Of a stretch of 64,000 nt of DNA, positions 476-64,000 are shown one piece after another. Origin of the DNA: a virus (Duplodnaviria > Heunggongvirae > Uroviricota > Caudoviricetes); the IMG/VR virus record IMGVR_UViG_3300014489_000001, positions 1-64,000 of that record. One strand, given 5' to 3'. Numbering within the stretch: position 1 is the stretch's first letter; each line of letters starts with the position of its first letter. Position numbers and translations under genes: made by a program. The notes under the pieces are model-generated. The model was not told where the DNA came from and did not search any database. It saw nothing but the letters and a program-made list of their open reading frames with translations.

Positions 476-1228
476 TTACCAGTATTTCTCTCTCAGGTCC
501 AAGAGCCAATTGTTCAGTAACTGCTTGTTGCCGTGTTCAGGAATCAATGACATATCCAAACAGAAACCAACTGCTTGAATTTTCTCTTCCATGATTTTCT
601 GGATGTCGCAGGCGGCGAACTCTTCGCACCTAATCTTCATCAGGAAGTCTCGCTCTTCGCCCTCTTTCCAAACGACAGGCTCACCACCCATTGCAATCCG
701 TTTAGCGTCTTCACTCAGACGCACGATATGGTAAGCCCATTTCTCGTTGTACTTACCGGTCGCTGTGTTGAGACGTTGACCGTTGATCAGTCGTTTCATT
801 TGGCCAGTCATGAAGCCGAGGTATTGCTTCACAACATCCCGGCTCAGAAACTCACGACGCACGAGTCTCAACGTATACCATTCAGGCATCGAGCGGCACA
901 ATCGATCCGTGAACAGCATCTCGATAATACCAGGATTACCCTTCAACAGCAGGTCGCAGAACTTGCCGACTTCATGGAAGCTGTGATCGGGACGTTCTAC
1001 CTTGTCCTTCGAGTCTTCGGAATCGTGTTTCCACGTTTCCGGTGGACCAGGCTCTTGAGGTAATCTACACGCAAGTAGGCCACGAGTCGGAATGATGTAG
1101 ACGCCGGAGAAATCGGTGTCGCTGGTTATCTTCTCACAATTATGCGAGCGGCTGCCCCAGACCTTGGAGAACAAGACCTTACCGGGCGGCTTGAATCGAG
1201 CAAGGAAATCAGCAAGAACGTCCATCAC
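476..1228 (-). CDS. polymerase-beta superfamily nucleotidyltransferase (predicted NTase, PF10127-like)
   Basis: GSRSHNCEKITSDTDFSGVYI matches the GS-x(9-13)-DxD NTase signature; 250 aa. Confidence 0.5.
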   Translation of the reverse strand: MMDVLADFLARFKPPGKVLFSKVWGSRSHNCEKITSDTDFSGVYIIPTRGLLACRLPQEPGPPETWKHDSEDSKDKVERPDHSFHEVGKFCDLLLKGNPGIIEMLFTDRLCRSMPEWYTLRLVRREFLSRDVVKQYLGFMTGQMKRLINGQRLNTATGKYNEKWAYHIVRLSEDAKRIAMGGEPVVWKEGEERDFLMKIRCEEFAACDIQKIMEEKIQAVGFCLDMSLIPEHGNKQLLNNWLLDLREKYW

Positions 1229-3542: not shown

Positions 3543-3820
3543 TTGAAAGTTAGAACCGTGACACCTTGGTCAACCGCAAAAGTGACCAACAGGTCACCGT
3601 AATGGTCTCTGAGAAGCTTTTCAAGGTCTTCACGTTCTTCAAATCTCTCGCTGACGGTCACGACGTATCTGCCTCGATTCGCTGCTTCTCGCAATTGCTG
3701 ATTGCAAGCGGCTAAGAATGTATTGAATTCATCGAGACGCCTGCGGGCACGATCTTGTGCCATCAATTCTTCGGCCCTGCCTGAGATTTCAGACAGGAAT
3801 TCTTTCGTGAGTTTTTCCAT
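3518..3820 (-). CDS. hypothetical protein
   Basis: 100-aa ORF, charged/coiled-coil-like. Confidence 0.4.
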   Translation of the reverse strand: MEKLTKEFLSEISGRAEELMAQDRARRRLDEFNTFLAACNQQLREAANRGRYVVTVSERFEEREDLEKLLRDHYGDLLVTFAVDQGVTVLTFKWKSKRSQ

Positions 3821-4107
3821 TAAAAATGCACCTGGGTTACGAATGTTCGGAGCGGAAGGTCATTGTGATTTTTCTCATCATATATGTCCTTTCCGTATTG
3901 AACATATGTCTTGCGGTACGATTCGTGGTATCCTTCACCTGGGTGGTAAGGTTCAATCTTCGTCATGAGATAGCTGCCCTTCTTGAACCCACCGTGCCCA
4001 CTATCATCGCCGTCATAAGGAAAGCAGATGAAGTGGGCACCGATTGGCAAATCTTCAAGTCTTGACGGCCGTGAATAGCAGTGCTTGAGAAAGTCTTGAC
4101 CGTCCAT
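3820..4107 (-). CDS. hypothetical protein
   Basis: 95-aa ORF abutting the dut start. Confidence 0.4.
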   Translation of the reverse strand: MDGQDFLKHCYSRPSRLEDLPIGAHFICFPYDGDDSGHGGFKKGSYLMTKIEPYHPGEGYHESYRKTYVQYGKDIYDEKNHNDLPLRTFVTQVHF

Positions 4108-14054: not shown

Positions 14055-14885
14055 TCAATCCGAGAAACATTGATCCACCTGTTCCCTAGCACTAAGAAGG
14101 TACTTTTTCCTAAGCCCCTTAGCACTACCACATGACCGCCGTGTCCAATGGAATAATCTGGTTCGCTCCGCTTCACTTCCGCTGTTTCTTTCGGCATATC
14201 TGACCCTAGTGAAAATTCTTGCTTGTATCTGCCGGATACGTTCACGGGATACACCAACACGTTCGCCAGTTGTCTGGAGTGTCATTTTCAAAAAGAAACG
14301 ACACTCGATAATTAGTCGCTCTCTAGCGGTAAGCAACTCCATGAACCACAAAGAATCTTTTTCTACCTCTTTGTGTTGATCTCGACCGATTTCCGGTACA
14401 TCAGTCTTAAGTCGACTAAGTTCGACCATTATCTTCGGTGGTGGTAAAATTTCAGTCTCTTGAACTTCCGGTATGTCCCACTCAACGCCACCAAACCCAG
14501 TTTCACCCCTCAATCGTTGTTGCAATGCAGCTCTACGTCTTTTGCTGGTGCTTGATGGAATACGAATCAAGTCGCCAGTTATCTGAGCTTGAGACATGGC
14601 TTGACGCACGCACCAGTGCATGTGTGTAACCAATCGTGTACCGAGCTTCATGTCGAACGATTCAATGGACCTAAGGATTCCAACCATTGCCCATTGAGCA
14701 TAATCCTCATCATCCATGCCTTTGCCGTTATACTTCTGGGAGAGTTTTACCCCATAACGCATCAGCGACATGACAAGCTGGTCTCTTGCTTCCTGGTTCC
14801 CCCGTCTCGCTTGGCGAACCAGTTGGCGTTCCTCTTTCACTGTCAGTTGAGCGATAGAGTGTATTAGGAGATTCTGCATAGTCAT
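14055..14885 (-). CDS. RNA polymerase sigma-70 family factor (regions 2 and 4); C-terminal extent uncertain (ORF 13937..14260 overlaps its 3' end in another frame)
   Basis: LTARERLIIECRF...TLQTTGERVGVSRERIRQIQARI (region 4.2 HTH); region-2-like N-terminal part. Confidence 0.65.
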   Translation of the reverse strand: MTMQNLLIHSIAQLTVKEERQLVRQARRGNQEARDQLVMSLMRYGVKLSQKYNGKGMDDEDYAQWAMVGILRSIESFDMKLGTRLVTHMHWCVRQAMSQAQITGDLIRIPSSTSKRRRAALQQRLRGETGFGGVEWDIPEVQETEILPPPKIMVELSRLKTDVPEIGRDQHKEVEKDSLWFMELLTARERLIIECRFFLKMTLQTTGERVGVSRERIRQIQARIFTRVRYAERNSGSEAERTRLFHWTRRSCGSAKGLRKKYLLSAREQVDQCFSD

Positions 14886-21357: not shown

Positions 21358-21628
21358 CCCTGTGTAGACGAATCAGTTTCCTGATTCTTGCCAACAAGAT
21401 CATCATCTTGTCTGGGTTGTACTTCATGGTGATAAGGTCTTCATCGACCTCGACTATGTTGCCGGAAGCAATCCTCTCACCACCTTTGACCACGTAATAT
21501 TTTGGGCCTACGAATTCCATGGTTGCACCTTCCTGCAACAATGGCATAGGATCGAAGACACGATACATAGTCAGTCTCCCGTCTTTGAAGTGCCCAGAAT
21601 CGTCGCCAGCGAAGATGCCGTGAATCAT
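21242..21628 (-). CDS. hypothetical protein (start trimmed to MIHGIFAGDD with GGAGGAAAA SD)
   Basis: track ORF 21242..21832 overlaps the DHH gene; internal ATG at 21628 gives a 4-nt overlap. Confidence 0.4.
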   Translation of the reverse strand: MIHGIFAGDDSGHFKDGRLTMYRVFDPMPLLQEGATMEFVGPKYYVVKGGERIASGNIVEVDEDLITMKYNPDKMMILLARIRKLIRLHRDGHPGVLPEIFQWLPEGYNEHCPVPATTQGESGLPGGI

Positions 21629-22488
21629 TTTTCCTCCACGTTTGGAGAATCTCCATGTCGTGGTCCAGTTATTGCGTCCAAGAATTCTTGGTGCCACGGA
21701 ACAGAGAACGAAGCAGCATGTGCATGCCCTCCTCCTCCATATAATTGTGCAATTGCAGAGACATCGATTCCCGTATCGTTGCTTGAACGAAGAGAATACA
21801 CGAATCGTTTTATACGATCTTGGTTGAACCATACTATGGCAAATGGACGACCAAGCCCTAACTCATGACCGATTTCACTTGCGAGAACTGTTGAGTTGAC
21901 ACTCATCACCTTGTGCCCATGGAATTCGATTTCGCGGGCCTGGGACACAGCCTGGCGAATGATCTTTTCTTGGTAGCGGATAATCGGTCGGCCTTCCTTG
22001 ACACACGCATCACGACCCATCAGCACAAACTTCTCGCAGTTGGCCAGTGAGAAAGCGTAGCTTTGGATGCAGGCGTCAACTTCTTTGGATTCGGGGAGTT
22101 CCCATTTCCAAAGATCACGATCTCGGATGTAGGGGAGAATCCACAACATCTCGCGATCAGGTTTGAGATACTTCCAAGCGAGTGTCGCGCCAGATTCATC
22201 GTTATCGTCGATATACGAAAACGGATAATCAGGCACGAAGCCTTCAAGTTGTTCGCGAGTGGATTTGTGGTGGTCGATGACCAGAAGGGATTTCGGATGT
22301 ACGCTTTTGAGGATCGCAATGTCTGGACAGTAGTCCACACAAACGATTGAGTCCTCATCCGAAATTTGAGGGAGTTGTTCCTGATACCGGACAGGTATCA
22401 GGTCGGCACCTTTGAAATATGATTCTGCGATGTACGCTGCGAAGATTCCGTCGGCGCAATTTGCGTGGAAGAGCAACTTAGTTGACAT
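21625..22488 (-). CDS. DHH-family phosphoesterase (NrnA/RecJ-like) with DHHA1 domain
   Basis: HANCADG (motif I), VIDHH (motif III), GGGGHAHA (DHHA1 GGGH). Confidence 0.7.
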   Translation of the reverse strand: MSTKLLFHANCADGIFAAYIAESYFKGADLIPVRYQEQLPQISDEDSIVCVDYCPDIAILKSVHPKSLLVIDHHKSTREQLEGFVPDYPFSYIDDNDESGATLAWKYLKPDREMLWILPYIRDRDLWKWELPESKEVDACIQSYAFSLANCEKFVLMGRDACVKEGRPIIRYQEKIIRQAVSQAREIEFHGHKVMSVNSTVLASEIGHELGLGRPFAIVWFNQDRIKRFVYSLRSSNDTGIDVSAIAQLYGGGGHAHAASFSVPWHQEFLDAITGPRHGDSPNVEEK

Positions 22489-23367: not shown

Positions 23368-24792
23368 TCATTGGGACTCGCTGGTGCGAATGAAGTCGAT
23401 GATCGCTTCGGACCACCCGCTGATATGGGTGAAGTTGCCGTAGCCGATTCCATTCTTGTCAGCACTGATGTTGATCAGGTAGTTCTCGTCACCGAATGCT
23501 TCCGCGGCGTTGGGATCGCACTTTGCATTCATGCCGGTTGCACAATCCTGCTCATCCGTAATGACGATGACGCGAGCCGCTTCGCCGTGTTCCTGTTCGC
23601 TGACGTAATCCATGCACTGAGTCAAGAAGATGCCACCGTGGCCGATTTCAGATTCCATCTTCATCTGGGCGAAAATCTCACCCAGAGCGAAACCACGACG
23701 CGCCGGAACCTGCTTCGTGGCATGTTTTCGGCGTTCATCAGACCCAGCAGTCGCATAGATGACCGGGTCTTCGGCAATCTCACGAATGAGAATCGCCAAA
23801 GCACCAGCAGCGTCCAATCTGGTCAGGTCACTCTTCTGCGAAATCTGCTTGCCGTGCATGGAACCAGACACGTCTATGATTAGGACGGTCTTACCAGGCA
23901 GTTTTTCGACCTTGGCAACGCATCGAAGCATCATATCTTCGATCATCGGTTCCCATCGCGGGCAAGCACGAGCCGCCGAGATGAATCGAAAAGGCAGAAC
24001 GCGGTCGAGAGGAACGTGCTTCGCGTACTCACGAACCAGGCCGGCGTCCACGCCAGACTGTTCCATGTTGCGAAGATTCCGAATGAAGGCTAAAGCGTAG
24101 AGCTTCTCTTCACGCATCAACCGCTCGAACGTCTCTTTCTTGTCAGCACCCGCGGAAAGTTCCGTTTCCCAAGTGTCGGGCGTCTGGAGCGTGCCGGCGA
24201 CCAATTTGCCGTACAACGATTCCGGATGGCGAAGAAGAATTTTCTCGTGGCCGTCCTTGTATTTCCGAGTGTATTTCTTGGAACGGCCGTTGCCCTTCGG
24301 TCCCGGATTCGCGTGACACAGGAACAACACGTCTTTGAGCTTGATCGCGTTGTTCTGGTTGTCGTACTTCGCGAGACTGTACTCGTTGAAGTTTCCGAAA
24401 GCCGCAGCGAGACCCTTCTTGACCTGGGCCGCAATCGGACACTTGCCGTCTTTCCAGTAGATCGAGAGGAACTAGGCCAACTCGTCGGGCCGCTGAATGA
24501 TTTCAGGTAGGAGTTTGCTCAGTTGTCCCTTGTGAACCGGCAGGCGAGCCATCTCGCGTGCAATCAGAAGCGGAACGTGCCGGAGTTTCTGGACAGTACG
24601 AGCTTGAATTGCGATTGCCGAGACCCGATCTGCTGGGACTTTGGCAATCAGAGAGCCGATGCGGGCGGCGATCTCTTCACCGGATTCGTAGAAATTGTCT
24701 TCCCAAAGCATACACGCCATTACGGAACGCCGAAGCTGTTCCTCAGTGTTGACGCTCACCGCACGAGCGCCGCCATGTGTTTTCACCGGCAT
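23368..24792 (-). pseudogene. rsr: Ro60/TROVE-domain protein with C-terminal vWA domain (Rsr-like), interrupted by an in-frame TAG at 24469-24471; pseudogene or read-through
   Basis: N-terminal segment contains the TROVE hallmark MLWEDNFYE. After TAG the frame continues FLSIYWKDGKCPIAAQVKKGLAAAFGNFNEYSLAKYDNQNNAIKLKDVLFLCHANPGP into ORF 23368..24330, whose C-terminal half has a vWA-type MIDAS (LIIDVSGSM). Confidence 0.7.
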
Positions 24793-25051
24793 TTTCGGTT
24801 CCTCCAGATTAAGGGATATACCACAAAAGTTGCAGGGATTAAACGATTCAGGGAGACATCATCAAAAGAAGTACCTGAATCTTACGCCACTGCAAGACAG
24901 ATTCGGGGAATAATTGACTACGGTTATCCCAGGTGTCAGGGTTTACAGCCCTGATCCTTGGGACTTCACTAATCAGAGAAGTATCCGTTGTCTACGCCAC
25001 CGAAAGACAGATGACGGGAATTGACGATTTCAGTTTTGGCCCTCTCGGGCG

Positions 25052-25122
25052 GTCTTTTGCTCTACCTTGGTGAGCTACAGCCAACTTGCGTTGCTGTTGG
25101 GAGTCGAACCCAATACCTAAAG
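25052..25122 (-). ncRNA. circularly permuted tRNA-like module (3' half - linker - 5' half)
   Basis: minus strand: TCTTT-AGGTA-TTGGG-TTCGACT-CCCAA-CAGCAAC-gcaag-TTGGCTG-TA-GCTC-ACCAAGGTA-GAGC-A-AAAGA; anticodon-stem strands AAAGA/TCTTT pair across the permutation. Confidence 0.5.
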
Positions 25123-25317
25123 AAGTAACTGTAATCTTCGCCACGTCAAGACTAACGACTCCAAAGGATTTACGACCTGTTTTATAGCGTCGTGAAAAAA
25201 GCACCGGGGATTAATCGGCACAGTTATGTCCATTTAAGGACACTCTAAGCAAGAAGTAACTGTGATCCTATCGCCACCGGATTGCAGATGCAGGGATTTG
25301 TCGCTACAGGCTTTCTG

Positions 25318-25388
25318 ACCGCTGCTCTTACACTGAGCTATGATGTCCGATCAGGACACCAGTTGGAATCAAACCAACGACCCGCGGT
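25318..25388 (-). ncRNA. circularly permuted tRNA-like module
   Basis: minus strand: ACCGC-GGGTC-GTTGG-TTTGATT-CCAAC-TGGTGTC-ctgatcg-GACATCA-TA-GCTC-AGTGTAA-GAGC-A-GCGGT; acceptor 7 bp (one G.U), anticodon stem GCGGT/ACCGC. Confidence 0.55.
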
Positions 25389-26180
25389 TTTCTTTGAAGT
25401 AACTGTAACTACGCCACTGCAAGAATCAGACCAACAACTACGCCAGCAGCAAAAGCTGCTATGATTACCAGTAGTTCAAACAGCAGAAAACAACCACAAC
25501 TTTTGTTGATCTCTTTTTCAGTCGGAATCAGATGACCAAACATTGAGCTATCCATCGTGTCTCCTGGATGTGGGGATTATTCACTACGGGGTAGCAGTGT
25601 TGAAACTGCAACAGCTTTCGCTGTTCTAACCGAAGTAACCGTAAGTAACGCCACCACAAGATTAAAAGGCTCATGTTATCTGTTATTCACCTTCGACCTT
25701 CGCATCATGCTACTTCCGTGGCAGACCACGCCATGAGCCTGCACCGTTGCCCATCCTCGGTGTACGGTATCGGGGATTATGCGATTCAGTGCTTTTTAGA
25801 AGGAAGTAACTGAATCTAACGCCACCGATGATTTAAGAGGGTTTTGTTTACGCAGCTTATCCCTTCAAGTGAGGGTTGCCATAGATGGGTCCCCGCTGCG
25901 TGGGCTAGGCAGTTCATGTGGCCGGGTTTCCCCGGCCCCGCGAACAATCTAAGACCCTAACCATCATTAGAAAGATTCAAAAGTCCGGGAATAATTTAGC
26001 TTCGGTTTTTCGTGTTGATGGTAGAAGTAACCGAAACAATCGCCACGGAACTAGCGTAGGTGGTGAGTTGCTTTAGGCCAGGTTGTTACTCACAATCGCT
26101 GTCTGGCCACCTTTGGATTCGTGAGGGCGGCTACACGCCGCCCTCGGCTTAATCAACAACCTCGTGCCTCATGCTTCAGC

Positions 26181-26254
26181 GCGAGTGTCCTGGACCGGTC
26201 TAGACGATACAATCCTTGTGGGATTGCAATGGGATTTGAACCCATGTTTCTCGC
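26181..26254 (-). ncRNA. circularly permuted tRNA-like module
   Basis: minus strand: GCGAG-AAAC-ATGGG-TTCAAAT-CCCAT-TGCAATC-ccacaag-GATTGTA-TC-GTC-tagaccggtccag-GAC-A-CTCGC; acceptor 7 bp (one G.U), anticodon stem CTCGC/GCGAG; flanks form an imperfect bulged helix. Confidence 0.5.
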
Positions 26255-26364
26255 AGCTTTGAGCCAGGGATTTTGCGATCACGGCGGGCACTTTTAACAG
26301 AAGTAGCCGTAATCTGTCGCCACTGGTTTGCGATTCGATTCTTGCAAGTCTCTCTGCCTAGTCC

Positions 26365-26393
26365 ATTATACCATAAAAAAGGTATCCTGTCAA
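26365..26393 (-). promoter_or_regulatory. consensus sigma-70 promoter with extended -10 (TTGACA-17-TGgTATAAT) reading into the ncRNA array and rsr
   Basis: rc reads TTGACAggataccttttttatgGTATAATgg; shares the 16-nt block tccattataccataa with the promoter at 1489-1517. Confidence 0.6.
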
Positions 26394-26429
26394 GAGCAAA
26401 AGCAAGAATTATCGGAGGAAGATTCGATT

Positions 26430-26642
26430 TCAGATCGTAACTTCATAGTTAGTATCAGTAATCGCAGCAGGCACACCCTTGATGCACTTGTTGGGATCAA
26501 GGTCATTAGCGATACATTGCTGAATCGCCATGTCCAAATCCCCACACAAGCCGAAGGGTGTAATCCACCACACCTTGAAATCGATAATCTTTTCGACCTT
26601 CCCAGGTTCGATCTCGATTGTTCTATTGACTAGGTTGATCAT
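26430..26642 (-). CDS. hypothetical protein
   Basis: 70-aa ORF. Confidence 0.35.
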   Translation of the reverse strand: MINLVNRTIEIEPGKVEKIIDFKVWWITPFGLCGDLDMAIQQCIANDLDPNKCIKGVPAAITDTNYEVTI

Positions 26643-28408
26643 GATTTCGATTCCTCAAGAGCTTTTGCCAAAGCTAAGCCACTGGTGCCGAACATCAACA
26701 AATGAGCACACACAGAGACGATTAACTTTTTGCGTTTCACGTCCGATTCGTCACGCATCTTGTCAGCGTCGTCACGTTTCCGGAGAAGCACTTCACGTTC
26801 TTTTGACGCACGACTCAAGCATTCGTCGCGATTCTTCACGATAGCAGAGCGATCCGCGATGATTTCTGACACACGACTCTCTGCCGCCCTCTTCTCTCCA
26901 AGAAGACTTGAAATACGGCACTTGGATTGCTCAACCGATTCGCGAAGAGCATTTCGACTTTCGATCATCTTCGCCAATTCGGCTTTCTGGCGTTCAGTCT
27001 TAGCCGTAAGCTCGTTATTTATGGCATCGGTCTTTTCTGCGGTCTTCTTGAGTCGGTTTAATTCGACTTCAAGATTGTGACGTTCGCCGTCGATGTTGGC
27101 CGCAAGCCTCTTGCCGTCCAAGATTTCCGCTTCCAGATTGGAAATCTTATATGCCTCAGAAGATACTGCATCGCGGCTTTCAACAAGCCGCTTGTTTGCC
27201 CGTTCGGCACACTGCACAGCTTCCTCAAGGAAGTGAATCTTTCGATTCAAATCAGCAATCAGAGGGTCGTCCTCGATCTGGTTTTGCAGTTGGAGAATCC
27301 TGGTATTCTGTTGCTGCAATTCCGTTCGTTGGTTTTCAAATGAAGAACGAATGTTATTGGATTCTTTACGAATCCTGTTCAACTCTTGCTCAAGATCACG
27401 ATTCTGCTTATCAAAATCGTTGAGCTTATCGTTGGTGACCTTGTACCGCCCTTGCAGACTTTCGAGATTCTTTTCAAGACTTGTAATCTTCATCTTGGAA
27501 AATTCCAAGTCTTGAGCCAGACATTTCGAGAGTCGGAGTTGTTCATTCTCCGACTTGAGCGCCCTGAAATCGATATCTCGACGCTCCAACAAGGTAGCAC
27601 TATACAACGCTGCTGCCTTGTTCTCATGACAATCGATTTGAAGAGTAGCAATCGATTTAGCCTGATCAGCCAGACGATCACCCTGACTCTTGGTTCCTTC
27701 CACGAGGCGGTCGATCTCGATGGTCTTGCCGCGGATGACTTCCTCAAGACAACAAATCTGTTGGCGGTCTGAATTGTCGAGAAGATTCCCGATACGTGTA
27801 CTCGCAGAAAGAAGCTGATCGTCTTTCCTCTTCAACTCTGCCCGTAATAGCTCAATCTCTTTGATCTTGTCGTCAACACGAGTCTTCTCTTGCAAATGCT
27901 GTAGCGTTCGTTCCTTCAACTCAGCTTCTCGTTCGTGAACCAAATCAAGACGACACCGAGAAATCTTTTTCTCGTGATCAAGATTGGCTCTATTCGTCTC
28001 GAAAGAATCGAGCATAGCGTCTGATCGTTCAGCATCACGCTGATCCCATTCGTCGATCTCAGCCTGCAACTTCTTGACCAGGTTCTTGAGTTCCTCGTTC
28101 TCTGTTCTCAAGTTCAGAAACTGCGGGTACAGAATCTCCCGCGACGGCATAAGGTGGTACCGTAAGGTGAGGTCCGATAGTTGCTGCTGTAAATCCTTGT
28201 TGGTCTTTTTCTGCTCGTGCAACTCGTGGCTGCGTTCCGTCAGCTTTCGCATATGGGATTTGAGTCGCTCCCTCATGCCCAGGACAGCTTTCTCCAGGTT
28301 GATGATTATGAGTGATTTGCTCATCGGGAATGTACCTTCCAAAGTTAGAATGTGATTTCCTTGCCATGTGCTTGAAACAGCCAAGACACACATAATACTT
28401 GTAGCCAT
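26639..28408 (-). CDS. long coiled-coil protein (SMC/tape-measure-like heptad-rich), start probably near MSKSLII (~28325)
   Basis: 589-aa ORF dominated by E/K/L/Q/R heptads; no enzymatic motifs. Confidence 0.45.
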   Translation of the reverse strand: MATSIMCVLAVSSTWQGNHILTLEGTFPMSKSLIIINLEKAVLGMRERLKSHMRKLTERSHELHEQKKTNKDLQQQLSDLTLRYHLMPSREILYPQFLNLRTENEELKNLVKKLQAEIDEWDQRDAERSDAMLDSFETNRANLDHEKKISRCRLDLVHEREAELKERTLQHLQEKTRVDDKIKEIELLRAELKRKDDQLLSASTRIGNLLDNSDRQQICCLEEVIRGKTIEIDRLVEGTKSQGDRLADQAKSIATLQIDCHENKAAALYSATLLERRDIDFRALKSENEQLRLSKCLAQDLEFSKMKITSLEKNLESLQGRYKVTNDKLNDFDKQNRDLEQELNRIRKESNNIRSSFENQRTELQQQNTRILQLQNQIEDDPLIADLNRKIHFLEEAVQCAERANKRLVESRDAVSSEAYKISNLEAEILDGKRLAANIDGERHNLEVELNRLKKTAEKTDAINNELTAKTERQKAELAKMIESRNALRESVEQSKCRISSLLGEKRAAESRVSEIIADRSAIVKNRDECLSRASKEREVLLRKRDDADKMRDESDVKRKKLIVSVCAHLLMFGTSGLALAKALEESKS

Positions 28409-28957: not shown

Positions 28958-29029
28958 TCGGCCTGAAAGGACTTGAACCTTCAACCTCCTGAGTATCAGT
29001 CAGGCGCTCTGCCATTGAGCTACAGGCCA
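28958..29029 (-). tRNA. tRNA-Ile (anticodon GAT)
   Basis: rc TGGCCTG-TA-GCTCAATGGCAGAGC-G-CCTGA-CTGATAC-TCAGG-AGGTT-GAAGG-TTCAAGT-CCTTT-CAGGCCG-A. Confidence 0.8.
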
Positions 29030-29043
29030 GTTGAGTCGAACAT

Positions 29044-29115
29044 TCGCTCTGCCGGGATTCGAACCCGGAACCGTCGAGATATAAGCCCGACACTCTGCCA
29101 TTGAGCTACAGAGCA
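29044..29115 (-). tRNA. tRNA with anticodon TAT (Ile, AUA decoder)
   Basis: rc TGCTCTG-TA-GCTC-AATGGCA-GAGT-G-TCGGG-CTTATAT-CTCGA-CGGTT-CCGGG-TTCGAAT-CCCGG-CAGAGCG-A. Confidence 0.7.
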
Positions 29116-29116
29116 G

Positions 29117-29189
29117 TGAACCCGGCGGGAATCGAACCCGCAACATTCTGATTAAGAGTCAGACGCTCTACCAATTGAGCTACGGATTC
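29117..29189 (-). tRNA. tRNA-Lys (anticodon CTT)
   Basis: rc GAATCCG-TA-GCTCAATTGGTAGAGC-G-TCTGA-CTCTTAA-TCAGA-ATGTT-GCGGG-TTCGATT-CCCGC-CGGGTTC-A. Confidence 0.8.
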
Positions 29190-29308
29190 AAATTTTGGTT
29201 TGAAGATTGGTTCGATACCTTCCGCACAGCCACGTAGTATATAGACTGGTGGCCAATCCGGTTTAATTGTTGTCAGTCTAACAGAAGTCGGAAACATGAA
29301 TCACCAAA

Positions 29309-29380
29309 TGGGACCGGAGGGAATCGAACCCTCATACACCGGATTAAAAGTCCGAGACTCTACCATTGAGTTACAGTCCC
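29309..29380 (-). tRNA. tRNA-Lys (anticodon TTT)
   Basis: rc GGGACTG-TA-ACTC-AATGGTA-GAGT-C-TCGGA-CTTTTAA-TCCGG-TGTAT-GAGGG-TTCGATT-CCCTC-CGGTCCC-A. Confidence 0.8.
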
Positions 29381-29446
29381 GGAAGGATTCGAACCTTCAA
29401 CCCTCGGATTCAGAATCCGATGCTCTACCGTTGAGCTACAGGACAT
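29381..29446 (-). tRNA. tRNA-Gln (anticodon CTG)
   Basis: rc ..TGTCCTG-TA-GCTCAACGGTAGAGC-A-TCGGA-TTCTGAA-TCCGA-GGGTT-GAAGG-TTCGAAT-CCTTC-CGGGAC..; 3' acceptor abuts or overlaps the next tRNA. Confidence 0.7.
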
Positions 29447-29519
29447 CAGCGCCGGTTGGATTCGAACCAACGACCAGCGGATTCAAAGTCCGCCGCTCTT
29501 CCATCTGAGCTACAGCGCA
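29447..29519 (-). tRNA. tRNA-Gln (anticodon TTG)
   Basis: rc TGCGCTG-TA-GCTCAGATGGAAGAGC-G-GCGGA-CTTTGAA-TCCGC-TGGTC-GTTGG-TTCGAAT-CCAAC-CGGCGCT-G. Confidence 0.75.
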
Positions 29520-29631
29520 ATAAAAGAGTTGTGATTAGTGGTGGTAGCCGCAGTTGCCTGGTGCGTCCTGACTAATCACATACAGCCGTTCTCAAACGTA
29601 TTGTCTCATCGTTATTTACCGGCTTACTCAG

Positions 29632-29705
29632 CAGTACCAACGGGACTTGAACCCGTAACCTTCCGGTTGACAACCGGATGCTCTAACCAATTGAGCTATG
29701 GTACT
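29632..29705 (-). tRNA. tRNA-Asp (anticodon GTC)
   Basis: rc AGTACCA-TA-GCTCAATTGGTTAGAGC-A-TCCGG-TTGTCAA-CCGGA-AGGTT-ACGGG-TTCAAGT-CCCGT-TGGTACT-G. Confidence 0.8.
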
Positions 29706-37701: not shown

Positions 37702-38055
37702 TTACATTGCCTTGAAATAAAGCTGAGTAACGTATTCCGTTTCAGTGAAGCCAGGGTATGTTTCCTTCATAACCTGTAGCAATCCTTCGTAAGTACGGCA
37801 AATTGGATCGTGTTCAAAGCACAGTAACTCTTTGTTCAAATCGATGAATCGAGTGTACTGCACTGTGAGAATTTTGTAATCCTTGTCAACAAGAGTGAAA
37901 GACATACTTTCACCAGATTCAAACCACGCCTTGATCCATTTGGACCCACGACGCACGGTAAGGTTCACATCATCCCTGAACACAGGATTGTTGAACAGTA
38001 AAGGAATCAACATCAGTCTTTCTCCAGATAAGTAGCTCCGACACACTTGAAACAC
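37702..38055 (-). CDS. hypothetical protein
   Basis: 117-aa ORF. Confidence 0.4.
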   Translation of the reverse strand: MFQVCRSYLSGERLMLIPLLFNNPVFRDDVNLTVRRGSKWIKAWFESGESMSFTLVDKDYKILTVQYTRFIDLNKELLCFEHDPICRTYEGLLQVMKETYPGFTETEYVTQLYFKAM

Positions 38056-39242
38056 ACACGACCTACGTGCATGTCTCGACGCTCAACCATCGGCTTGACA
38101 ACACAACCTTCTCGATAATGATTCGCACTTCGCCACTTGCTGGGTCCATCCGAGTGACCCACGACGCACGAAAACGAGTAGGGAACCGCTTTGTCGAGAA
38201 TCGGTACCCACGGTAGTTGATCAGCAAGATTCCTCGCAGCAATAGGGTCAGCAAATTCGCCATCAAGCATGATGTCGAATGCAGCGAACATTAACGGTTC
38301 ATTATCGGTCGCACCGTAGCGAAGATTCTGAACCTGACCAAACACTTCGCCGTATACTACGGCACCTGGATGGTTGATTAACCAAAACTCAAGACATGGT
38401 GTTGCACTGAGAGCATTCCACCAAAGATTACGTTGCTTCGGTTTGTTGTGCAACCTGTCGAAAATCTCTTGGACACGTGTCTCATCGACTTCCCTGAACT
38501 CAGGAGGTTGACTTGGAACAAGTCTTACAAATTGTGCTGGTGGCATTTCAGGCGTAGCTGTTGCGTCCTTCTTGAAGACGTGCTGGCGCAGGAACTCAAG
38601 AGTGATGTGATCGTAAGAAGGATATTCTTTCTTCCACTCATTACGCGACCCACAATGAATCTGCCCATCACTATAGACATAACGAGCCGAGCAACCATGA
38701 ATCTTTTCCGTAATCCACACCGGCTCACCCTCGGTGAACAAGTTATGATACTTACGGAATGCATCCACGTCGTACTTGACCGTGAATACAGTCGGGCCTT
38801 TGGCAGTTTCACCACCAGTAATCAGGTTGTCACTCTGGACACCTGGAAGCGGTGGCTCGTAATGCGTGACGCCTAGTTGCGTAGCAACGTCGTCACCGAG
38901 ATTACTGCCTTCCGGAGCAGGGACCATGAGGCCGTAGCTAACGACTTTGCGAAGCTTGATCGCTTTAACTCGGTGTGTTCCGTCGGCTTTTGGCTTAAGG
39001 AAGCTGAATTCTGGTCGACTGGTATCGACAACGGAATCCGGTGGGAGGTAAGCGCCCTGTGCCACGGCTTGCCAGTCTGCGGTTCGGACGACACAGGTGT
39101 AACCACCAAAGACGTTGACGATGGATAGTGAATCAGCATTAGGGTGTTTCTCCAACACGATTGATACGACTTCAACCTGATGCGTAGAATTACTCATTAC
39201 CACTCCCAAGCCATTAAAGGTGAAACGATTTCCGCTTTCCAC
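38013..39242 (-). CDS. Rnl2-type ATP-dependent RNA ligase fused to an N-terminal tRNA-binding (Myf/Trbp111-like OB) domain
   Basis: N-terminus VEVVSIVLEKHPNADSLSIVNVFGG (tRNA_bind HPNADxL); ligase motif I TEKIHGCSARY (KxHG) and motif IV EGCVVKP. Confidence 0.6.
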   Translation of the reverse strand: MESGNRFTFNGLGVVMSNSTHQVEVVSIVLEKHPNADSLSIVNVFGGYTCVVRTADWQAVAQGAYLPPDSVVDTSRPEFSFLKPKADGTHRVKAIKLRKVVSYGLMVPAPEGSNLGDDVATQLGVTHYEPPLPGVQSDNLITGGETAKGPTVFTVKYDVDAFRKYHNLFTEGEPVWITEKIHGCSARYVYSDGQIHCGSRNEWKKEYPSYDHITLEFLRQHVFKKDATATPEMPPAQFVRLVPSQPPEFREVDETRVQEIFDRLHNKPKQRNLWWNALSATPCLEFWLINHPGAVVYGEVFGQVQNLRYGATDNEPLMFAAFDIMLDGEFADPIAARNLADQLPWVPILDKAVPYSFSCVVGHSDGPSKWRSANHYREGCVVKPMVERRDMHVGRVCFKCVGATYLEKD

Positions 39243-62267: not shown

Positions 62268-62876
62268 ATGCATCTCATGAAACATCTCAATGGCCACCTA
62301 TTGTGTGCCATTGACACTGAAACTACGGGAACTGATCCGCGTAAGCATGAAGTCATACAAGTTGCTGTAATTCCGCTTGACGGATTACTTCAACCGGATG
62401 CTGCGCGACTTCCGTTCTTGTTAGACATGGCGCCGAATCGGCCCGAGAATGCTGACCCTGCGGCAATGGATTGCAACAGACGCAGGTTGGCGGAACTTAT
62501 CTTGAGAGCGGTAGATCAGGACAAAGGCTGCGATTTGTTTGTTGAGTGGGTAGAGCGTCAGAAACTCGGCTTCAACAAACGCATCATGCCTCTTGGAGCG
62601 AACTGGCCGTTTGATCGAGAAATGATTAAGGAATGGTTGGGGCCGAAGACCTTCGAAATGTGTATCGACTCACAGTTTCGTGACGTTCAAAGCACCGCGG
62701 TCTTCTTGAACGATCTGGCGTCTATTCGCGGGTTGCCTTACCCATATCCGAAGGTGAACCTTGGTTACTTGTGTAATCAACTTCGTATTGAACGCACAAG
62801 TGCGCACGATGCGACAGATGATGCACGAGTCACGGCTGAGGTCTATCGTCGGATGTTACAGGAGTTTTACTCCTAG
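62268..62876 (+). CDS. DEDDh 3'-5' exonuclease (DnaQ/epsilon-like)
   Basis: Exo I AIDTETTG, Exo III HDATDDARVTAEVY. Confidence 0.75.
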   Translation: MHLMKHLNGHLLCAIDTETTGTDPRKHEVIQVAVIPLDGLLQPDAARLPFLLDMAPNRPENADPAAMDCNRRRLAELILRAVDQDKGCDLFVEWVERQKLGFNKRIMPLGANWPFDREMIKEWLGPKTFEMCIDSQFRDVQSTAVFLNDLASIRGLPYPYPKVNLGYLCNQLRIERTSAHDATDDARVTAEVYRRMLQEFYS

Positions 62877-63642: not shown

Positions 63643-63716
63643 GGTGACTGAACTCAAAAAGGTGCGAGACCAGATTGTGAATCTGGTATAAGCGGGTTCG
63701 ACTCCCGCCAGTCACA
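63643..63716 (+). tRNA. tRNA-His (anticodon GTG) with encoded G-1
   Basis: g-GTGACTG-AA-CTC..GAG-A-CCAGA-TTGTGAA-TCTGG-TATAA-GCGGG-TTCGACT-CCCGC-CAGTCAC-A; short 3-bp D stem. Confidence 0.7.
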
Positions 63717-63781: not shown

Positions 63782-63854
63782 GCCGCGTTAGCTCAGTTGG
63801 AAGAGCAGGGGTTTTGTAAACCCCAGGTCCTCAGTTCGAGTCTGAGACGCGGCT
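63782..63854 (+). tRNA. tRNA-Thr (anticodon TGT)
   Basis: GCCGCGT-TA-GCTCAGTTGGAAGAGC-A-GGGGT-TTTGTAA-ACCCC-AGGTC-CTCAG-TTCGAGT-CTGAG-ACGCGGC-T. Confidence 0.85.
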
Positions 63855-64000
63855 CTCATGCCCTATCGTCTTACCTTTGACAAGGCAGCCGGTAGGGCCA
63901 GCGGTGGGTAAAAGCGTCGGCGGGTCTATACCACCACGTTGATTACGAATCGAGAGGACCTTGTCAGGGTCCATGTCGTATAGGACGGTGATCCTCCCAA

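What the first reader, a model, noticed from the sequence alone, without database searches (positions are those of the whole stretch)
24868..26323. Nine copies of a 23-nt non-palindromic direct repeat (GAAGTAACYGTAAYCTnnCGCCAC) spaced 110-276 nt apart punctuate the RNA array
Seen directly: copies start at 24868, 24978, 25121, 25252, 25396, 25632, 25804, 26024 and 26300, with a highly conserved core GAAGTAAC...CGCCAC. The first copy sits ~76 nt upstream of the rsr ATG. The repeat lies at each unit boundary and is not part of the tRNA-like fold; only in unit 3 does its last two nt contribute to the anticodon-like stem. Candidate roles: a phage-specific promoter (two sigma-70-family factors are encoded in this window), an RNase processing site that releases individual RNAs, or a protein-binding site (Ro60 or other). 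The layout superficially resembles a CRISPR array but the repeat is too short, non-palindromic and the spacers are long and structured.
Basis: seen in the sequence. Interest (0 to 1): 0.75.

Follow-up and report, generated by a model that had tools for sequence, protein, structure and literature searches.

The report
Ro60-binding stems of nine phage Y RNAs
The nine "repeats" are the conserved 5' halves of nine small folded RNA modules (Y RNA-like) that most likely each bind the phage's neighbouring Ro60/Rsr protein; this is a known kind of RNA, here in an unusually long tandem array.

Summary
The repeat is real: nine copies of GAAGTA-N10-13-CGCCAC, all within 24868-26323 and nowhere else in the window (0.01 expected by chance). 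It has to be read on the minus strand, as GUGGCG..(7-9 nt)..UACUUC, the same strand as the adjacent TROVE/Ro60 (rsr) gene. It is neither a promoter nor a CRISPR-like repeat. Each copy is the 5' half of a stem-internal loop-stem RNA module. The 3' half, (R)NNNAAUCC-C plus flanking bases, was not reported in this finding. G1, G3 and G4 pair with CCC (U2 bulged), the bases just upstream extend this lower stem, CG(A/U)(A) sits in an internal loop, and the variable middle forms an upper stem. In the nine units both stems prefer their own partner (0/20,000 permutations). In 30 modules next to rsr genes of other phages, 92.8% of cells pair (61% shuffled) and all 15 pairs show compensatory changes. 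The motif matches the published Rsr-binding motif GNCGAAN0-1G and the conserved UA of bacterial Y RNAs. Two units carry YrlA-type tRNA-like cores. One perfect sigma-70 promoter precedes the array. Caulobacter phage CcrPW has an unannotated array of eight. Rsr binding itself is inferred, not shown.

The parts
26365..26393 (-). Sigma-70-type promoter TTGACA-17 nt-TATAAT with a TG extended -10, about 35 nt upstream of the first module (U9). It is the likely single promoter for the array and rsr.
   Evidence: 12/12 consensus match with TG before the -10. It is the only strong promoter-like site in 24300-26900, and no convincing terminator lies inside the array.
26264..26326 (-). Module U9 (63 nt, minimal). 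5' half 26326-26300 contains repeat copy 9; 3' half 26285-26264. P2 is GAUUACGGC/GCCGUGAUC and P1 is CCAG/CUGG.
   Evidence: CM R1 hit of 53.5 bits over the full model; hand parse.
25984..26049 (-). Module U8 (66 nt, minimal). Repeat copy 8 lies in 26049-26024; 3' half 26006-25984.
   Evidence: CM R1 50.4 bits; own partner ranks first for both P1 and P2.
25769..25829 (-). Module U7 (61 nt, minimal). Repeat copy 7 lies in 25829-25803; 3' half 25790-25769. P2 is GAUUCAGU/ACUGAAUC.
   Evidence: CM R1 59.7 bits.
25569..25658 (-). Module U6 (90 nt). Repeat copy 6 lies in 25658-25632. A 42-nt insert forms two small hairpins. 3' half 25589-25569.
   Evidence: CM R1 58.3 bits. Unconstrained MFE reproduces P1/loop/P2, z = -2.6.
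25289..25421 (-). Module U5 (133 nt, YrlA type). Repeat copy 5 lies in 25421-25396. The tRNA-like T-arm/D-arm core is at 25386-25320. 3' half 25309-25289.
   Evidence: Rfam YrlA core hit of 27.7 bits, E = 0.0025, model positions 23-85. MFE gives P1/loop/P2 enclosing a three-way tRNA-like core, z = -2.3.
25204..25280 (-). Module U4 (77 nt). Repeat copy 4 (25 nt) lies in 25280-25253. It has a hairpin insert; 3' half 25224-25204, followed by UGCUUUUUU.
   Evidence: CM R1 51.1 bits; MFE z = -2.8.
25012..25148 (-). Module U3 (137 nt, YrlA type). Repeat copy 3 lies in 25148-25122 and is the only copy with the canonical GGCGAAG. The tRNA-like core is at 25121-25052. 3' half 25034-25012.
   Evidence: Rfam YrlA core hit of 32.8 bits, E = 8e-5, model positions 23-88; MFE z = -2.9.
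24902..25004 (-). Module U2 (103 nt). Repeat copy 2 lies in 25004-24978. It has a 54-nt hairpin insert; 3' half 24923-24902.
   Evidence: CM R1 55.7 bits; MFE z = -3.4.
24831..24894 (-). Module U1 (64 nt, minimal). Repeat copy 1 lies in 24894-24868; 3' half 24852-24831. It ends 38 nt before the rsr ATG, so it lies in the rsr 5' leader.
   Evidence: CM R1 66.4 bits, the best hit.
23368..24792 (-). rsr: a Ro60/TROVE + vWA-type protein gene of 474 codons, with one in-frame TAG at 24476-24474 (codon 107).
   Evidence: Pfam TROVE, E = 1.3e-8. It is 40-57% identical over its full length to phage Rsr homologues, and the TAG aligns with a conserved Glu. tblastn finds 78 phage records with a match.

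Best explanation
Read on the minus strand, each 'repeat' (G-U-G-G-C-G-N2-4-[7-9 nt]-U-A-C-U-U-C) is the sequence-conserved 5' strand of the Ro60/Rsr-binding module of a Y RNA-like RNA. Nine such modules lie in tandem directly upstream of, and co-oriented with, the phage's rsr (TROVE) gene.

Shown by sequence analysis:
(i) Each repeat has a downstream partner, [P2 3' strand]-RNNNAAUCC-C-[P1 3' strand].
(ii) G1, G3 and G4 of the repeat pair with CCC while U2 bulges out, and 3-5 bases just 5' of the repeat extend this lower stem (P1).
(iii) CG(A/U)(A) faces a 7-9-nt 3' loop in an asymmetric internal loop.
(iv) The variable middle of the repeat forms the upper stem (P2).
(v) UACUUC opens the distal part. 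That part is a tRNA-like (YrlA-type) domain in U3 and U5, other hairpins in U2, U4 and U6, and a 12-17-nt loop in U1, U7, U8 and U9.

Inferred:
- The whole array plus rsr is transcribed from the single consensus sigma-70 promoter at 26393-26365.
- The phage Rsr ring binds each module through the conserved 5' strand and bulged helix, as Ro60 binds Y RNAs in animals, Deinococcus, Salmonella and Thermus phage phiLo.
- The precursor is cut in the short linkers (7-8 nt between U5/U4, U3/U2 and U2/U1) into individual Y RNAs whose different distal domains tether or gate Rsr differently, for example towards host PNPase or RNA-repair enzymes.
- Module U1, 38 nt before the rsr start codon, could also let Rsr regulate its own mRNA.
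For: 1. Nine copies, confined to the array. CM search of the whole window finds modules only at 24828-26330 on the minus strand.
2. Own-partner specificity in the window. Mean P2 duplex energy is -8.1 (own partner) against -3.3 kcal/mol (others), and P1 is -5.3 against -0.9. For each, 0/20,000 permutations reach the observed mean.
3. Thirty modules from other phages' rsr loci: 92.8% of cells are paired against 61.4% in shuffles and no more than 48% with slid partners. All 15 pairs have changes on both sides. G3:C becomes A:U in 6 modules with no mismatches. The covariation score is 0.83 against 0.22.
4. RNAalifold independently predicts the same structure, including the bulged U.
5. Unconstrained MFE of U2-U6 reproduces it, with z from -2.3 to -3.4.
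6. Link to rsr: in the 32 rsr loci the motif occurs 41 times on the rsr strand and 0 times on the other. Among 120 contigs chosen by DNA pattern alone, 13 of the 16 with a module have a TROVE gene on the same strand, against 3 of the 104 without a module.
7. Match to known Y RNA features: GNCGAAN0-1G is the proposed Rsr site and a YUAY follows it at about nt 22-25 (PMC4201824). [quoted passage not shown] A stem-bulge-stem with CGAA binds phage Ro60 at about 17 nM, and each CGAA base contributes 3-4-fold (PMC12135203).
8. The Rfam YrlA consensus starts a-cggCgaAUG...CUA.
9. YrlA tRNA-like cores lie inside U3 and U5.
10. A 12/12 promoter lies upstream, and no strong promoter or convincing terminator lies within the array.
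11. TROVE is the only neighbouring gene shared between the window, CcrPW and RsoM2USA.
Against: - No binding, transcript or processing data exist for this genome, so Rsr binding is inferred from homology and gene linkage.
- Only one of the nine copies (U3) has the canonical CGAA. The others read CGUA(A), CGAUA, CGUUA, CGAUU or CGACA, and in phiLo single substitutions in CGAA weakened binding 3-4-fold.
- The Rfam YrlA model scores only 28-33 bits (gathering threshold 69) and covers only the tRNA-like core. In the Rfam consensus GGCGA is drawn as fully paired, not as a bulged helix plus loop.
- The rsr gene here carries a premature TAG, so in this particular sequence the protein partner may be truncated.
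- One well-formed module (L035) has no TROVE gene within about 3 kb.
- The alignment used for the covariation counts was fitted to my model, although the slid controls and RNAalifold address this.
- G-U against A-C counts favour the rsr strand only about 2:1.
Confidence: 0.8

Rival explanations
1. The repeat is a phage-specific promoter, recognised by one of the phage-encoded sigma factors or another phage RNA polymerase, and drives separate transcription of each small RNA.
For: The repeat is a non-palindromic 22-25-nt element with two invariant blocks separated by a roughly constant distance, placed in front of each RNA unit. A sigma-70-family protein is encoded at 14055-14885.
Against: The motif precedes no other gene in 64 kb. 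The bases between and just upstream of the invariant blocks covary with a partner 12-90 nt downstream, which is a constraint on RNA rather than on a DNA site. The same motif is conserved next to rsr in phages with very different Rsr proteins and G+C contents of 29-63%. The blocks do not resemble -35/-10 elements, and the promoter scan finds no site at the repeats. A consensus host-type promoter already precedes the array.
Confidence: 0.03
2. The repeat is primarily an RNase recognition or processing signal that releases individual RNAs from a long precursor, with no role in Rsr binding.
For: The repeats sit at the 5' edge of every module. Linkers between adjacent modules are short and similar (UCUGUCU twice, UCUGCAA once). 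A polycistronic precursor is likely, so some processing must occur if discrete RNAs are made.
Against: A cleavage signal does not explain the strict linkage to TROVE genes, the match to the Ro60-recognition motif, or the conserved 3' loop and bulged helix. The window-specific linker sequence is not conserved in other phages, whereas the module is.
Confidence: 0.06
3. The modules are not released as separate Y RNAs. They act in cis as a long structured 5' leader of the rsr mRNA, carrying multiple Rsr-binding sites for autoregulation or mRNA stabilisation.
For: One promoter and no convincing internal terminator. U1 ends 38 nt from the rsr ATG. In most related loci the modules lie directly upstream of rsr on the same strand.
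Against: In two loci the module lies downstream of rsr (L078, L138), and in Salmonella the Y RNAs are 3' of rsr. One orphan module has its own terminator. Two modules carry complete tRNA-like effector domains typical of free Y RNAs. Known Y RNAs accumulate as discrete small RNAs (PMC4201824). A small ORF with a good Shine-Dalgarno sequence sits inside the array. This rival shares the Rsr-binding premise and differs only in the fate of the RNA.
Confidence: 0.1
4. The array is a CRISPR-like or other DNA-level repeat array, for example recombination or replication sites.
For: Direct repeats of about 23 nt are interspersed with unique sequence.
Against: The repeats vary in sequence and length (22-25 nt). 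The 'spacers' are 87-253 nt, structured, and include tRNA-like folds. The Pfam scans found no Cas protein among the annotated ORFs. The covariation shows RNA-level selection.
Confidence: 0.01

Closest known systems
Bacterial and phage Y RNAs of the YrlA/YrlB type (Rfam RF02553 YrlA; Chen et al. 2014, PMC4201824)
   Same: They are encoded next to and co-oriented with an Rsr/Ro60 (TROVE) gene. They have a 5' motif GNCG(A/U)A(N)G and a conserved UA about 20 nt downstream. A stem formed by the 5' and 3' ends has only its 5' strand conserved in sequence. Two units (U3, U5) contain the permuted T-arm/D-arm tRNA-like core.
   Different: Rfam scores are far below the gathering threshold (28-33 bits against 69) and cover only the core. 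The phage-clade module has its own signature: an invariant bulged U in GUGG/CCC, an invariant UACUUC, and a conserved 3' loop (CGNUUGUU in relatives, RNNNAAU in the window). Canonical CGAA is present in only 1 of 9 copies. Seven of the nine modules lack a tRNA-like domain, and four are only 61-66 nt, shorter than the 80-220 nt quoted for Y RNAs. There are nine tandem copies, compared with the two to four distinct Y RNAs reported for most vertebrate species and the two in S. Typhimurium.
Thermus phage phiLo Yrl1/Yrl2 with phiRo60 (PMC12135203)
   Same: These are phage-encoded RNAs located upstream of the phage Ro60 gene. They have a stem-bulge-stem architecture with a CGAA-type motif in the internal loop or bulge. 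A minimal stem-bulge-stem suffices for nanomolar binding, and they lack a tRNA-like domain, like U1 and U7-U9.
   Different: phiLo has two RNAs and this window has nine. Binding and PNPase recruitment were shown there and are only inferred here.
Metazoan Y RNAs / nematode stem-bulge RNAs bound by Ro60
   Same: Ro60 recognises a conserved bulged helix near the paired 5'/3' ends, mainly through the 5' strand (GGUCCGA). The design is modular: a Ro60-binding stem plus a variable effector loop.
   Different: They are transcribed individually by Pol III with a 3' U-tract for La. They have a different sequence, are not arrayed and have no tRNA-like domain.
Unannotated array upstream of the TROVE gene gp440 of Caulobacter phage CcrPW (NC_048046; Colossusvirus)
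   Same: Eight copies of GUGGCG-N-U(A/U)CUUC, spaced 92-197 nt apart in a 1.4-kb gap directly upstream of the TROVE gene. Three contain sub-threshold YrlA cores. This is the same architecture as the window.
   Different: There is no nucleotide similarity beyond the motif, and the Rsr proteins are about 42% identical. The CcrPW record annotates no RNA in that gap. By the account in PMC12135203, Chen et al. [quoted passage not shown] I found no description of the whole array in the papers I could search.

Membership tests
Y RNA (bacterial/phage Rsr-associated ncRNA) | Encoded close to, and on the same strand as, a Ro60/Rsr (TROVE-domain) gene | tested here: met
   The array ends 38 nt upstream of a TROVE-domain ORF on the same strand. 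The same linkage is seen in about 26 of 32 related loci and in 13 of 16 pattern-selected loci.
Y RNA (bacterial/phage Rsr-associated ncRNA) | Conserved 5'-strand Ro60-recognition motif (GNCGAAN0-1G in bacteria; GGUCCGA in vertebrates) | tested here: met
   GGCG is invariant in 9/9 copies. The full GGCGAAG is present in U3, and the other copies read GGCG-UA(A)G, -AUAG, -UUA, -AUUG or -ACAG. In relatives the motif is GG(C/U)G(A/U)AG. It is met as a variant, because canonical AA occurs in only 1 of 9 copies.
Y RNA (bacterial/phage Rsr-associated ncRNA) | Stem formed by 5' and 3' segments with a bulge or internal loop at the Ro60 site (stem-bulge-stem) | tested here: met
   P1 (with bulged U), an internal loop and P2 are supported by own-partner specificity, covariation in 30 independent modules, RNAalifold and MFE folds.
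Y RNA (bacterial/phage Rsr-associated ncRNA) | Physically bound by Ro60/Rsr in vivo or in vitro | not testable with these tools
   This needs RIP/CLIP or EMSA. It is inferred only from homology to systems where binding was shown.
YrlA subfamily (Rfam RF02553) | Reaches the Rfam gathering score (69 bits) with a full-length match | tested here: not met
   The best hits are 32.8 and 27.7 bits, covering model positions 23-88 only. No locus of the phage clade reaches the threshold.
YrlA subfamily (Rfam RF02553) | Effector domain is a permuted tRNA-like fold with conserved T-arm and D-arm | tested here: met
   This is met for U3 and U5 only: GGGUUCGACUCCC and GUAGCUCA..GGUAGAGC align to the model's T and D arms, and the MFE gives a three-way core. 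It is not met for the other seven modules.
CRISPR array | Near-identical repeats of fixed length with uniform, unstructured spacers | tested here: not met
   The repeats are 22-25 nt with variable middles. The intervals of 87-253 nt contain structured RNAs.
Phage-specific promoter | Motif recurs upstream of several transcription units across the genome, with no requirement for a downstream complementary partner | tested here: not met
   The motif is confined to the array and covaries with a downstream partner.

The most novel reading that the evidence does not exclude
Large phages such as this one and CcrPW may encode 'Y RNA arrays': one early transcript carrying 8-9 Rsr-binding modules with diversified or deleted effector domains. 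Such a transcript could act as a multivalent platform or decoy. It might assemble several Ro60 rings on one RNA, or yield a repertoire of mini Y RNAs (61-66 nt, smaller than any characterised Y RNA) that redirect or sequester host PNPase, RNA-repair or tRNA-handling enzymes during infection. The invariant UACUUC element would be a new, clade-specific contact site. That would be a new mode of phage control of host RNA metabolism, not just more copies of a known RNA.
Probability: 0.2. Interest if true: 0.7.

Novelty: new variant of a known kind. Interest (0 to 1): 0.5.

Why it matters
The result turns an unexplained repeat into a concrete, testable RNA-protein model. It gives exact coordinates for nine Y RNA-like modules. 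It also gives a covariation-supported secondary structure for the Rsr-binding module of a widespread phage clade (bulged GUGG/CCC helix, CG(A/U)A loop, P2, invariant UACUUC), and a covariance model that finds these RNAs where Rfam's YrlA model fails. The analysis shows that some large phages, including the cultured Caulobacter phage CcrPW, carry unannotated arrays of eight or nine such modules. Many are minimal hairpins lacking the tRNA-like domain. This widens the known range of Y RNA size and copy number, and offers a tractable system (CcrPW/Caulobacter) for asking what phage Ro60-Y RNA particles do during infection. It is not a new class of element, because the underlying biology (Y RNAs binding Ro60/Rsr) is established.

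Tried and rejected
1. I replaced it with gapped patterns.
2. Rfam at gathering threshold found only tRNAs in the window and no YrlA in 12 related loci. Only the permissive scan showed partial YrlA cores.
3. My first rigid regex/offset parser for 5'/3' partners mis-assigned several modules, so I replaced it with hand parsing plus a covariance model.
4. The CM misses or mis-aligns modules with 86-87-nt inserts (U3, U5). Those were delimited by hand and checked by MFE.
It became useful only after filtering with the CM and tblastn.
6. blastn of the array against all fetched loci gave no hit. Against GenBank phages only the rsr coding part matched, so the array has no nucleotide-level relatives and the spacers could not be identified.
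7. A possible extra pair between C5 of GGCG and the G of the 3' loop (CGNUUG) was considered and rejected, because it gives C-A mismatches in several modules and is absent from the window.
8. Genome-wide TAG recoding as the explanation for the stop in rsr was rejected: TAG ends 10 long ORFs.
9. The supplementary tables of Chen et al. 2014 and the 2020 Annual Review were not available.
Full report
OBSERVATION.
The repeat exists. A gapped pattern, GAAGTA-N10-13-CGCCAC, gives exactly nine + strand matches, at 24868, 24978, 25122, 25253, 25396, 25632, 25803, 26024 and 26300. There are none elsewhere in the 64 kb, and 0.01 are expected by chance. The 24-nt consensus as written matches only one copy within three mismatches, because the middle varies in length.

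STRAND AND CONTEXT.
Everything functional around the repeat is on the minus strand.
- The adjacent ORF (24792 to 23368) is a Ro60/Rsr-type protein. Pfam finds a TROVE domain (E = 1.3e-8), and the protein is 40-57% identical over its full length to phage homologues.
- Eight tRNA genes at 28958-29705 are on the minus strand.
- A permissive Rfam scan finds two partial matches to YrlA, the bacterial Y RNA family, at 25121-25052 and 25386-25320 on the minus strand. They cover only the tRNA-like core, model positions 23-88.
- A perfect sigma-70 promoter (TTGACA-17-TATAAT with a TG extended -10) lies at 26393-26365 on the minus strand, about 35 nt upstream of the outermost repeat. There is no strong promoter-like site and no convincing terminator inside the array.
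Read on this strand, the repeat is GUGGCG-N2-4-(7-9 nt)-UACUUC.

ANATOMY.
Each repeat has a downstream partner that the finding did not report: a stretch complementary to the repeat's variable middle, followed by RNNNAAUCC-C and a few bases complementary to the bases just 5' of the repeat. This gives nine modules with a common plan:
- a lower stem P1, whose top is G1:C, a bulged U2, G3:C and G4:C;
- an asymmetric internal loop, with CG(A/U)(A) on the 5' side and 7-9 nt on the 3' side;
- an upper stem P2 of 7-9 bp;
- then UACUUC and a variable distal part.
The distal part is a YrlA-type tRNA-like core in U3 and U5, other hairpins in U2, U4 and U6, and a 12-17-nt loop in U1, U7, U8 and U9.
Module coordinates: U9 26326-26264, U8 26049-25984, U7 25829-25769, U6 25658-25569, U5 25421-25289, U4 25280-25204, U3 25148-25012, U2 25004-24902, U1 24894-24831.
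The linkers U5/U4, U3/U2 and U2/U1 are only 7-8 nt. The other gaps are 55-214 nt.

IS THE PAIRING REAL?
- Within the window, the duplex energy of each 5' strand with its own 3' strand is much better than with the other eight. For P2 the means are -8.1 against -3.3 kcal/mol, and for P1 they are -5.3 against -0.9. In each case 0 of 20,000 permutations reach the observed mean.
- Unconstrained folding of the hand-delimited modules U2-U6 returns the same P1/loop/P2 architecture, with z-scores of -2.3 to -3.4.
- A covariance model built from the nine trimmed modules finds full-length modules, always on the rsr strand, in about 26 of 32 IMG/VR loci retrieved only through the Rsr protein.
- On the 30 best non-window modules, 92.8% of cells form standard pairs, against 61.4% after shuffling and no more than 48% when partners are slid. 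All 15 pairs show changes on both sides, and the covariation score is 0.83 against 0.22.
- The two pairs that involve the 'invariant' part of the repeat are especially clean. G3:C is replaced by A:U six times and G4:C once, with no mismatch.
- RNAalifold, run without my structure, predicts the same fold, including the bulged U and one further pair closing P2.
- Conservation per position: the bulged U, the G of CG, UACUUC and some 3'-loop positions are invariant. The helix positions carry almost no sequence information yet stay paired.
- G-U pairs outnumber A-C pairs 20:10, which favours the rsr strand.

LINK TO Rsr.
In the 32 rsr loci the 5' motif occurs 41 times on the rsr strand and never on the other. 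For the converse test I took 120 viral contigs selected only by a DNA pattern. Sixteen of them carry a full module. Thirteen of those have a TROVE gene in the same fetched stretch, always co-oriented, with the module upstream in 11 and downstream in 2. Two of the remaining three are truncated close to the module. One of these is the CcrPW fragment, whose TROVE gene is known. Only 3 of the 104 module-less contigs have a TROVE gene. One orphan module (L035) has its own terminator and no TROVE gene within about 3 kb. No other neighbouring gene is shared between the window, CcrPW and RsoM2USA.

COMPARISON WITH WHAT IS KNOWN.
- Chen et al. 2014 (PMC4201824) identified a short 5' motif, GNCGAAN0-1G, as the likely Rsr-binding site of bacterial Y RNAs. 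It resembles the GGUCCGA contacted by Xenopus Ro60. They also found a conserved YUAY at about nt 22-25.
- Wang et al. (bioRxiv 10.1101/312249) state that all Y RNAs have a stem formed by their 5' and 3' ends that contains the Ro60 site, that only the 5' strand of this helix is conserved across bacteria, and that a UA is conserved.
- For Thermus phage phiLo, two Y RNA-like RNAs upstream of the phage Ro60 gene have a stem-bulge-stem with CGAA. A minimal stem-bulge-stem binds with a KD of about 17 nM, and each CGAA base contributes 3-4-fold (PMC12135203).
- The Rfam YrlA consensus begins a-cggCgaAUG...CUA.
The window's repeat (GU-GGCG-AAG in U3, GGCG-UAG and similar in the others, then ..UAC) is therefore the conserved 5' strand of a Y RNA Rsr-binding module. 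That explains why it looks like a non-palindromic direct repeat.
- A Listeria phage study reports three very highly transcribed ncRNA regions within 2 kb upstream of, and co-directional with, an Rsr-like gene (PMC12282133). This is transcript-level support for that kind of arrangement in another phage.

MECHANISM (shown versus inferred).
Shown: the modular RNA structure, its conservation, and its linkage to rsr. The promoter match, the absence of strong internal signals, and the tRNA-like cores in two modules are also shown.
Inferred:
- Host RNA polymerase transcribes the array and rsr as one unit.
- Rsr binds each module through the GUGG/CCC bulged helix and the CG(A/U)A loop.
- The precursor is cut in the linkers into separate Y RNAs.
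- The different distal domains give Rsr different partners or gate it.
- U1, in the rsr leader, may allow autoregulation.
The genomic context fits an RNA-repair or RNA-metabolism role. The window encodes an RlaP nucleotidyltransferase, an Rnl-type RNA ligase, DHH/DHHA1 and metallophosphoesterases, an RNase T-like exonuclease and tRNA arrays.

RIVALS.
- A phage-specific promoter is very unlikely. The motif is confined to the array, it covaries with a downstream partner, it is conserved across very different phages, and it has no -35/-10 resemblance.
- A pure RNase signal does not explain the TROVE linkage or the match to the Ro60 motif, although processing near the repeats is expected.
- A cis-acting multi-site leader of the rsr mRNA shares the Rsr-binding premise and cannot be excluded without RNA data.
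- A CRISPR-like array is excluded.

HOW UNUSUAL IS IT?
Counts from the 5' motif pattern show most related loci with one to four copies. The largest arrays are the window (9), Caulobacter phage CcrPW (8, in a 1.4-kb gap directly upstream of TROVE gene gp440 where no RNA is annotated), L118 (6) and L124 (5). I found no description of such arrays in the searchable literature. The supplementary tables of Chen et al. 2014 were not available. By the account in PMC12135203, Chen et al. [quoted passage not shown] Four modules (61-66 nt) are shorter than the 80-220 nt quoted for Y RNAs.

VERDICT.
The element belongs to a known kind (Y RNA, Rsr-binding module). It is a clade-specific variant organised in an unusually long tandem array. 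Interest is moderate.

Noticed in passing
window 24474-24476 (minus strand, codon 107 of rsr): The rsr gene has a single in-frame TAG where nine homologues have a conserved Glu (DELA-E-FL), so GAG to TAG is one base change. The rest of the gene is intact. TAG ends 10 other long ORFs, so this is not genome-wide recoding. A nonsense mutation, a sequencing error and read-through all remain possible.
   Followed up: partly
window 25409-25555 (minus strand): A small ORF of 48 aa (MDSSMFGHLIPTEKEINKSCGCFLLFELLVIIAAFAAGVVVGLILAVA) has an AGGAG Shine-Dalgarno sequence 6 nt upstream and a C-terminal transmembrane-like helix. It fills the 147-nt gap between modules U6 and U5, and its TAG stop lies inside repeat copy 5 (GUGGCGUAG).
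   Followed up: partly
window 26050-26263, 25830-25983 and 25659-25768 (minus strand): Long spacers after modules U9, U8 and U7 (214, 154 and 110 nt) lie outside the Y modules. The first two fold somewhat better than shuffles (z = -2.2 and -2.0). The first contains a T-arm-like hairpin (CAUGGGUUCAAAUCCCAUUG) that gives a weak tRNA hit (20.7 bits). No similar sequence was found in any fetched locus, and their identity is unknown.
   Followed up: partly
window 25195-25203 (minus strand): The 3' end of module U4 (P1 CCGG/CCGG) is followed directly by UGCUUUUUU. Together with the long module stem this could act as a partial intrinsic terminator or as a 3'-end signal in the middle of the array. The simple terminator scan did not flag it, because the loop is too long.
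   Followed up: no
all modules: window copies and A2 alignment columns 26-31: UACUUC immediately 3' of the P2 5' strand is invariant in 9/9 window modules and 29/30 modules from other phages. That is much more conserved than the YUAY/UA of bacterial YrlA. No pairing partner was found. Many minimal modules also have an A-rich stretch (GAAAA) at the 3' end of the apical loop.
   Followed up: partly
L153 1609-2985 (Caulobacter phage CcrPW, NC_048046, record about 115999-117375): The gap upstream of TROVE gene gp440, where no RNA is annotated, contains eight copies of the motif (L153 1755, 1847, 1991, 2161, 2358, 2488, 2647, 2822) and three sub-threshold YrlA cores. The only annotated feature in the gap is a 42-aa hypothetical ORF on the opposite strand, which is probably spurious.
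   Followed up: yes
L035 3992-4062 (IMGVR_UViG_3300005526_000012): This is the best-scoring module outside the window (48.7 bits). It stands alone in an intergenic region, is followed by a clear intrinsic terminator, and has no TROVE gene within about 3 kb on a 50-kb contig. It may be an orphan Y RNA that relies on a distant or host-encoded Rsr.
   Followed up: partly
window 63644-63716 (+): Rfam calls a tRNA here (54.3 bits) that ARAGORN misses. Its anticodon loop UUGUGAA reads GUG (His), and the D-arm region is unusual. It sits 65 nt upstream of the tRNA-Thr at 63782-63855.
   Followed up: partly
window 476-1228, 21625-22488, 38013-39242 (all minus) and 62268-62876 (+): RNA-repair or RNA-metabolism genes are scattered through the window: an RlaP nucleotidyltransferase, a DHH/DHHA1 phosphoesterase two genes downstream of rsr (after an HNH endonuclease), an Rnl-type RNA ligase with a PHA02142 OB domain, and an RNase T-like exonuclease. 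These are possible functional partners of the Rsr-Y RNA system.
   Followed up: no
L015 149-5001 (IMGVR_UViG_3300036790_000219): A related phage has about 20 tRNA genes and a two-piece (permuted) alpha-type tmRNA (3652-3943, 134.8 bits) immediately upstream of its Y modules and rsr. This suggests that rsr and the Y RNAs are often embedded in phage tRNA/tmRNA islands, as in the window, where eight tRNA genes lie about 2.6 kb upstream.
   Followed up: no
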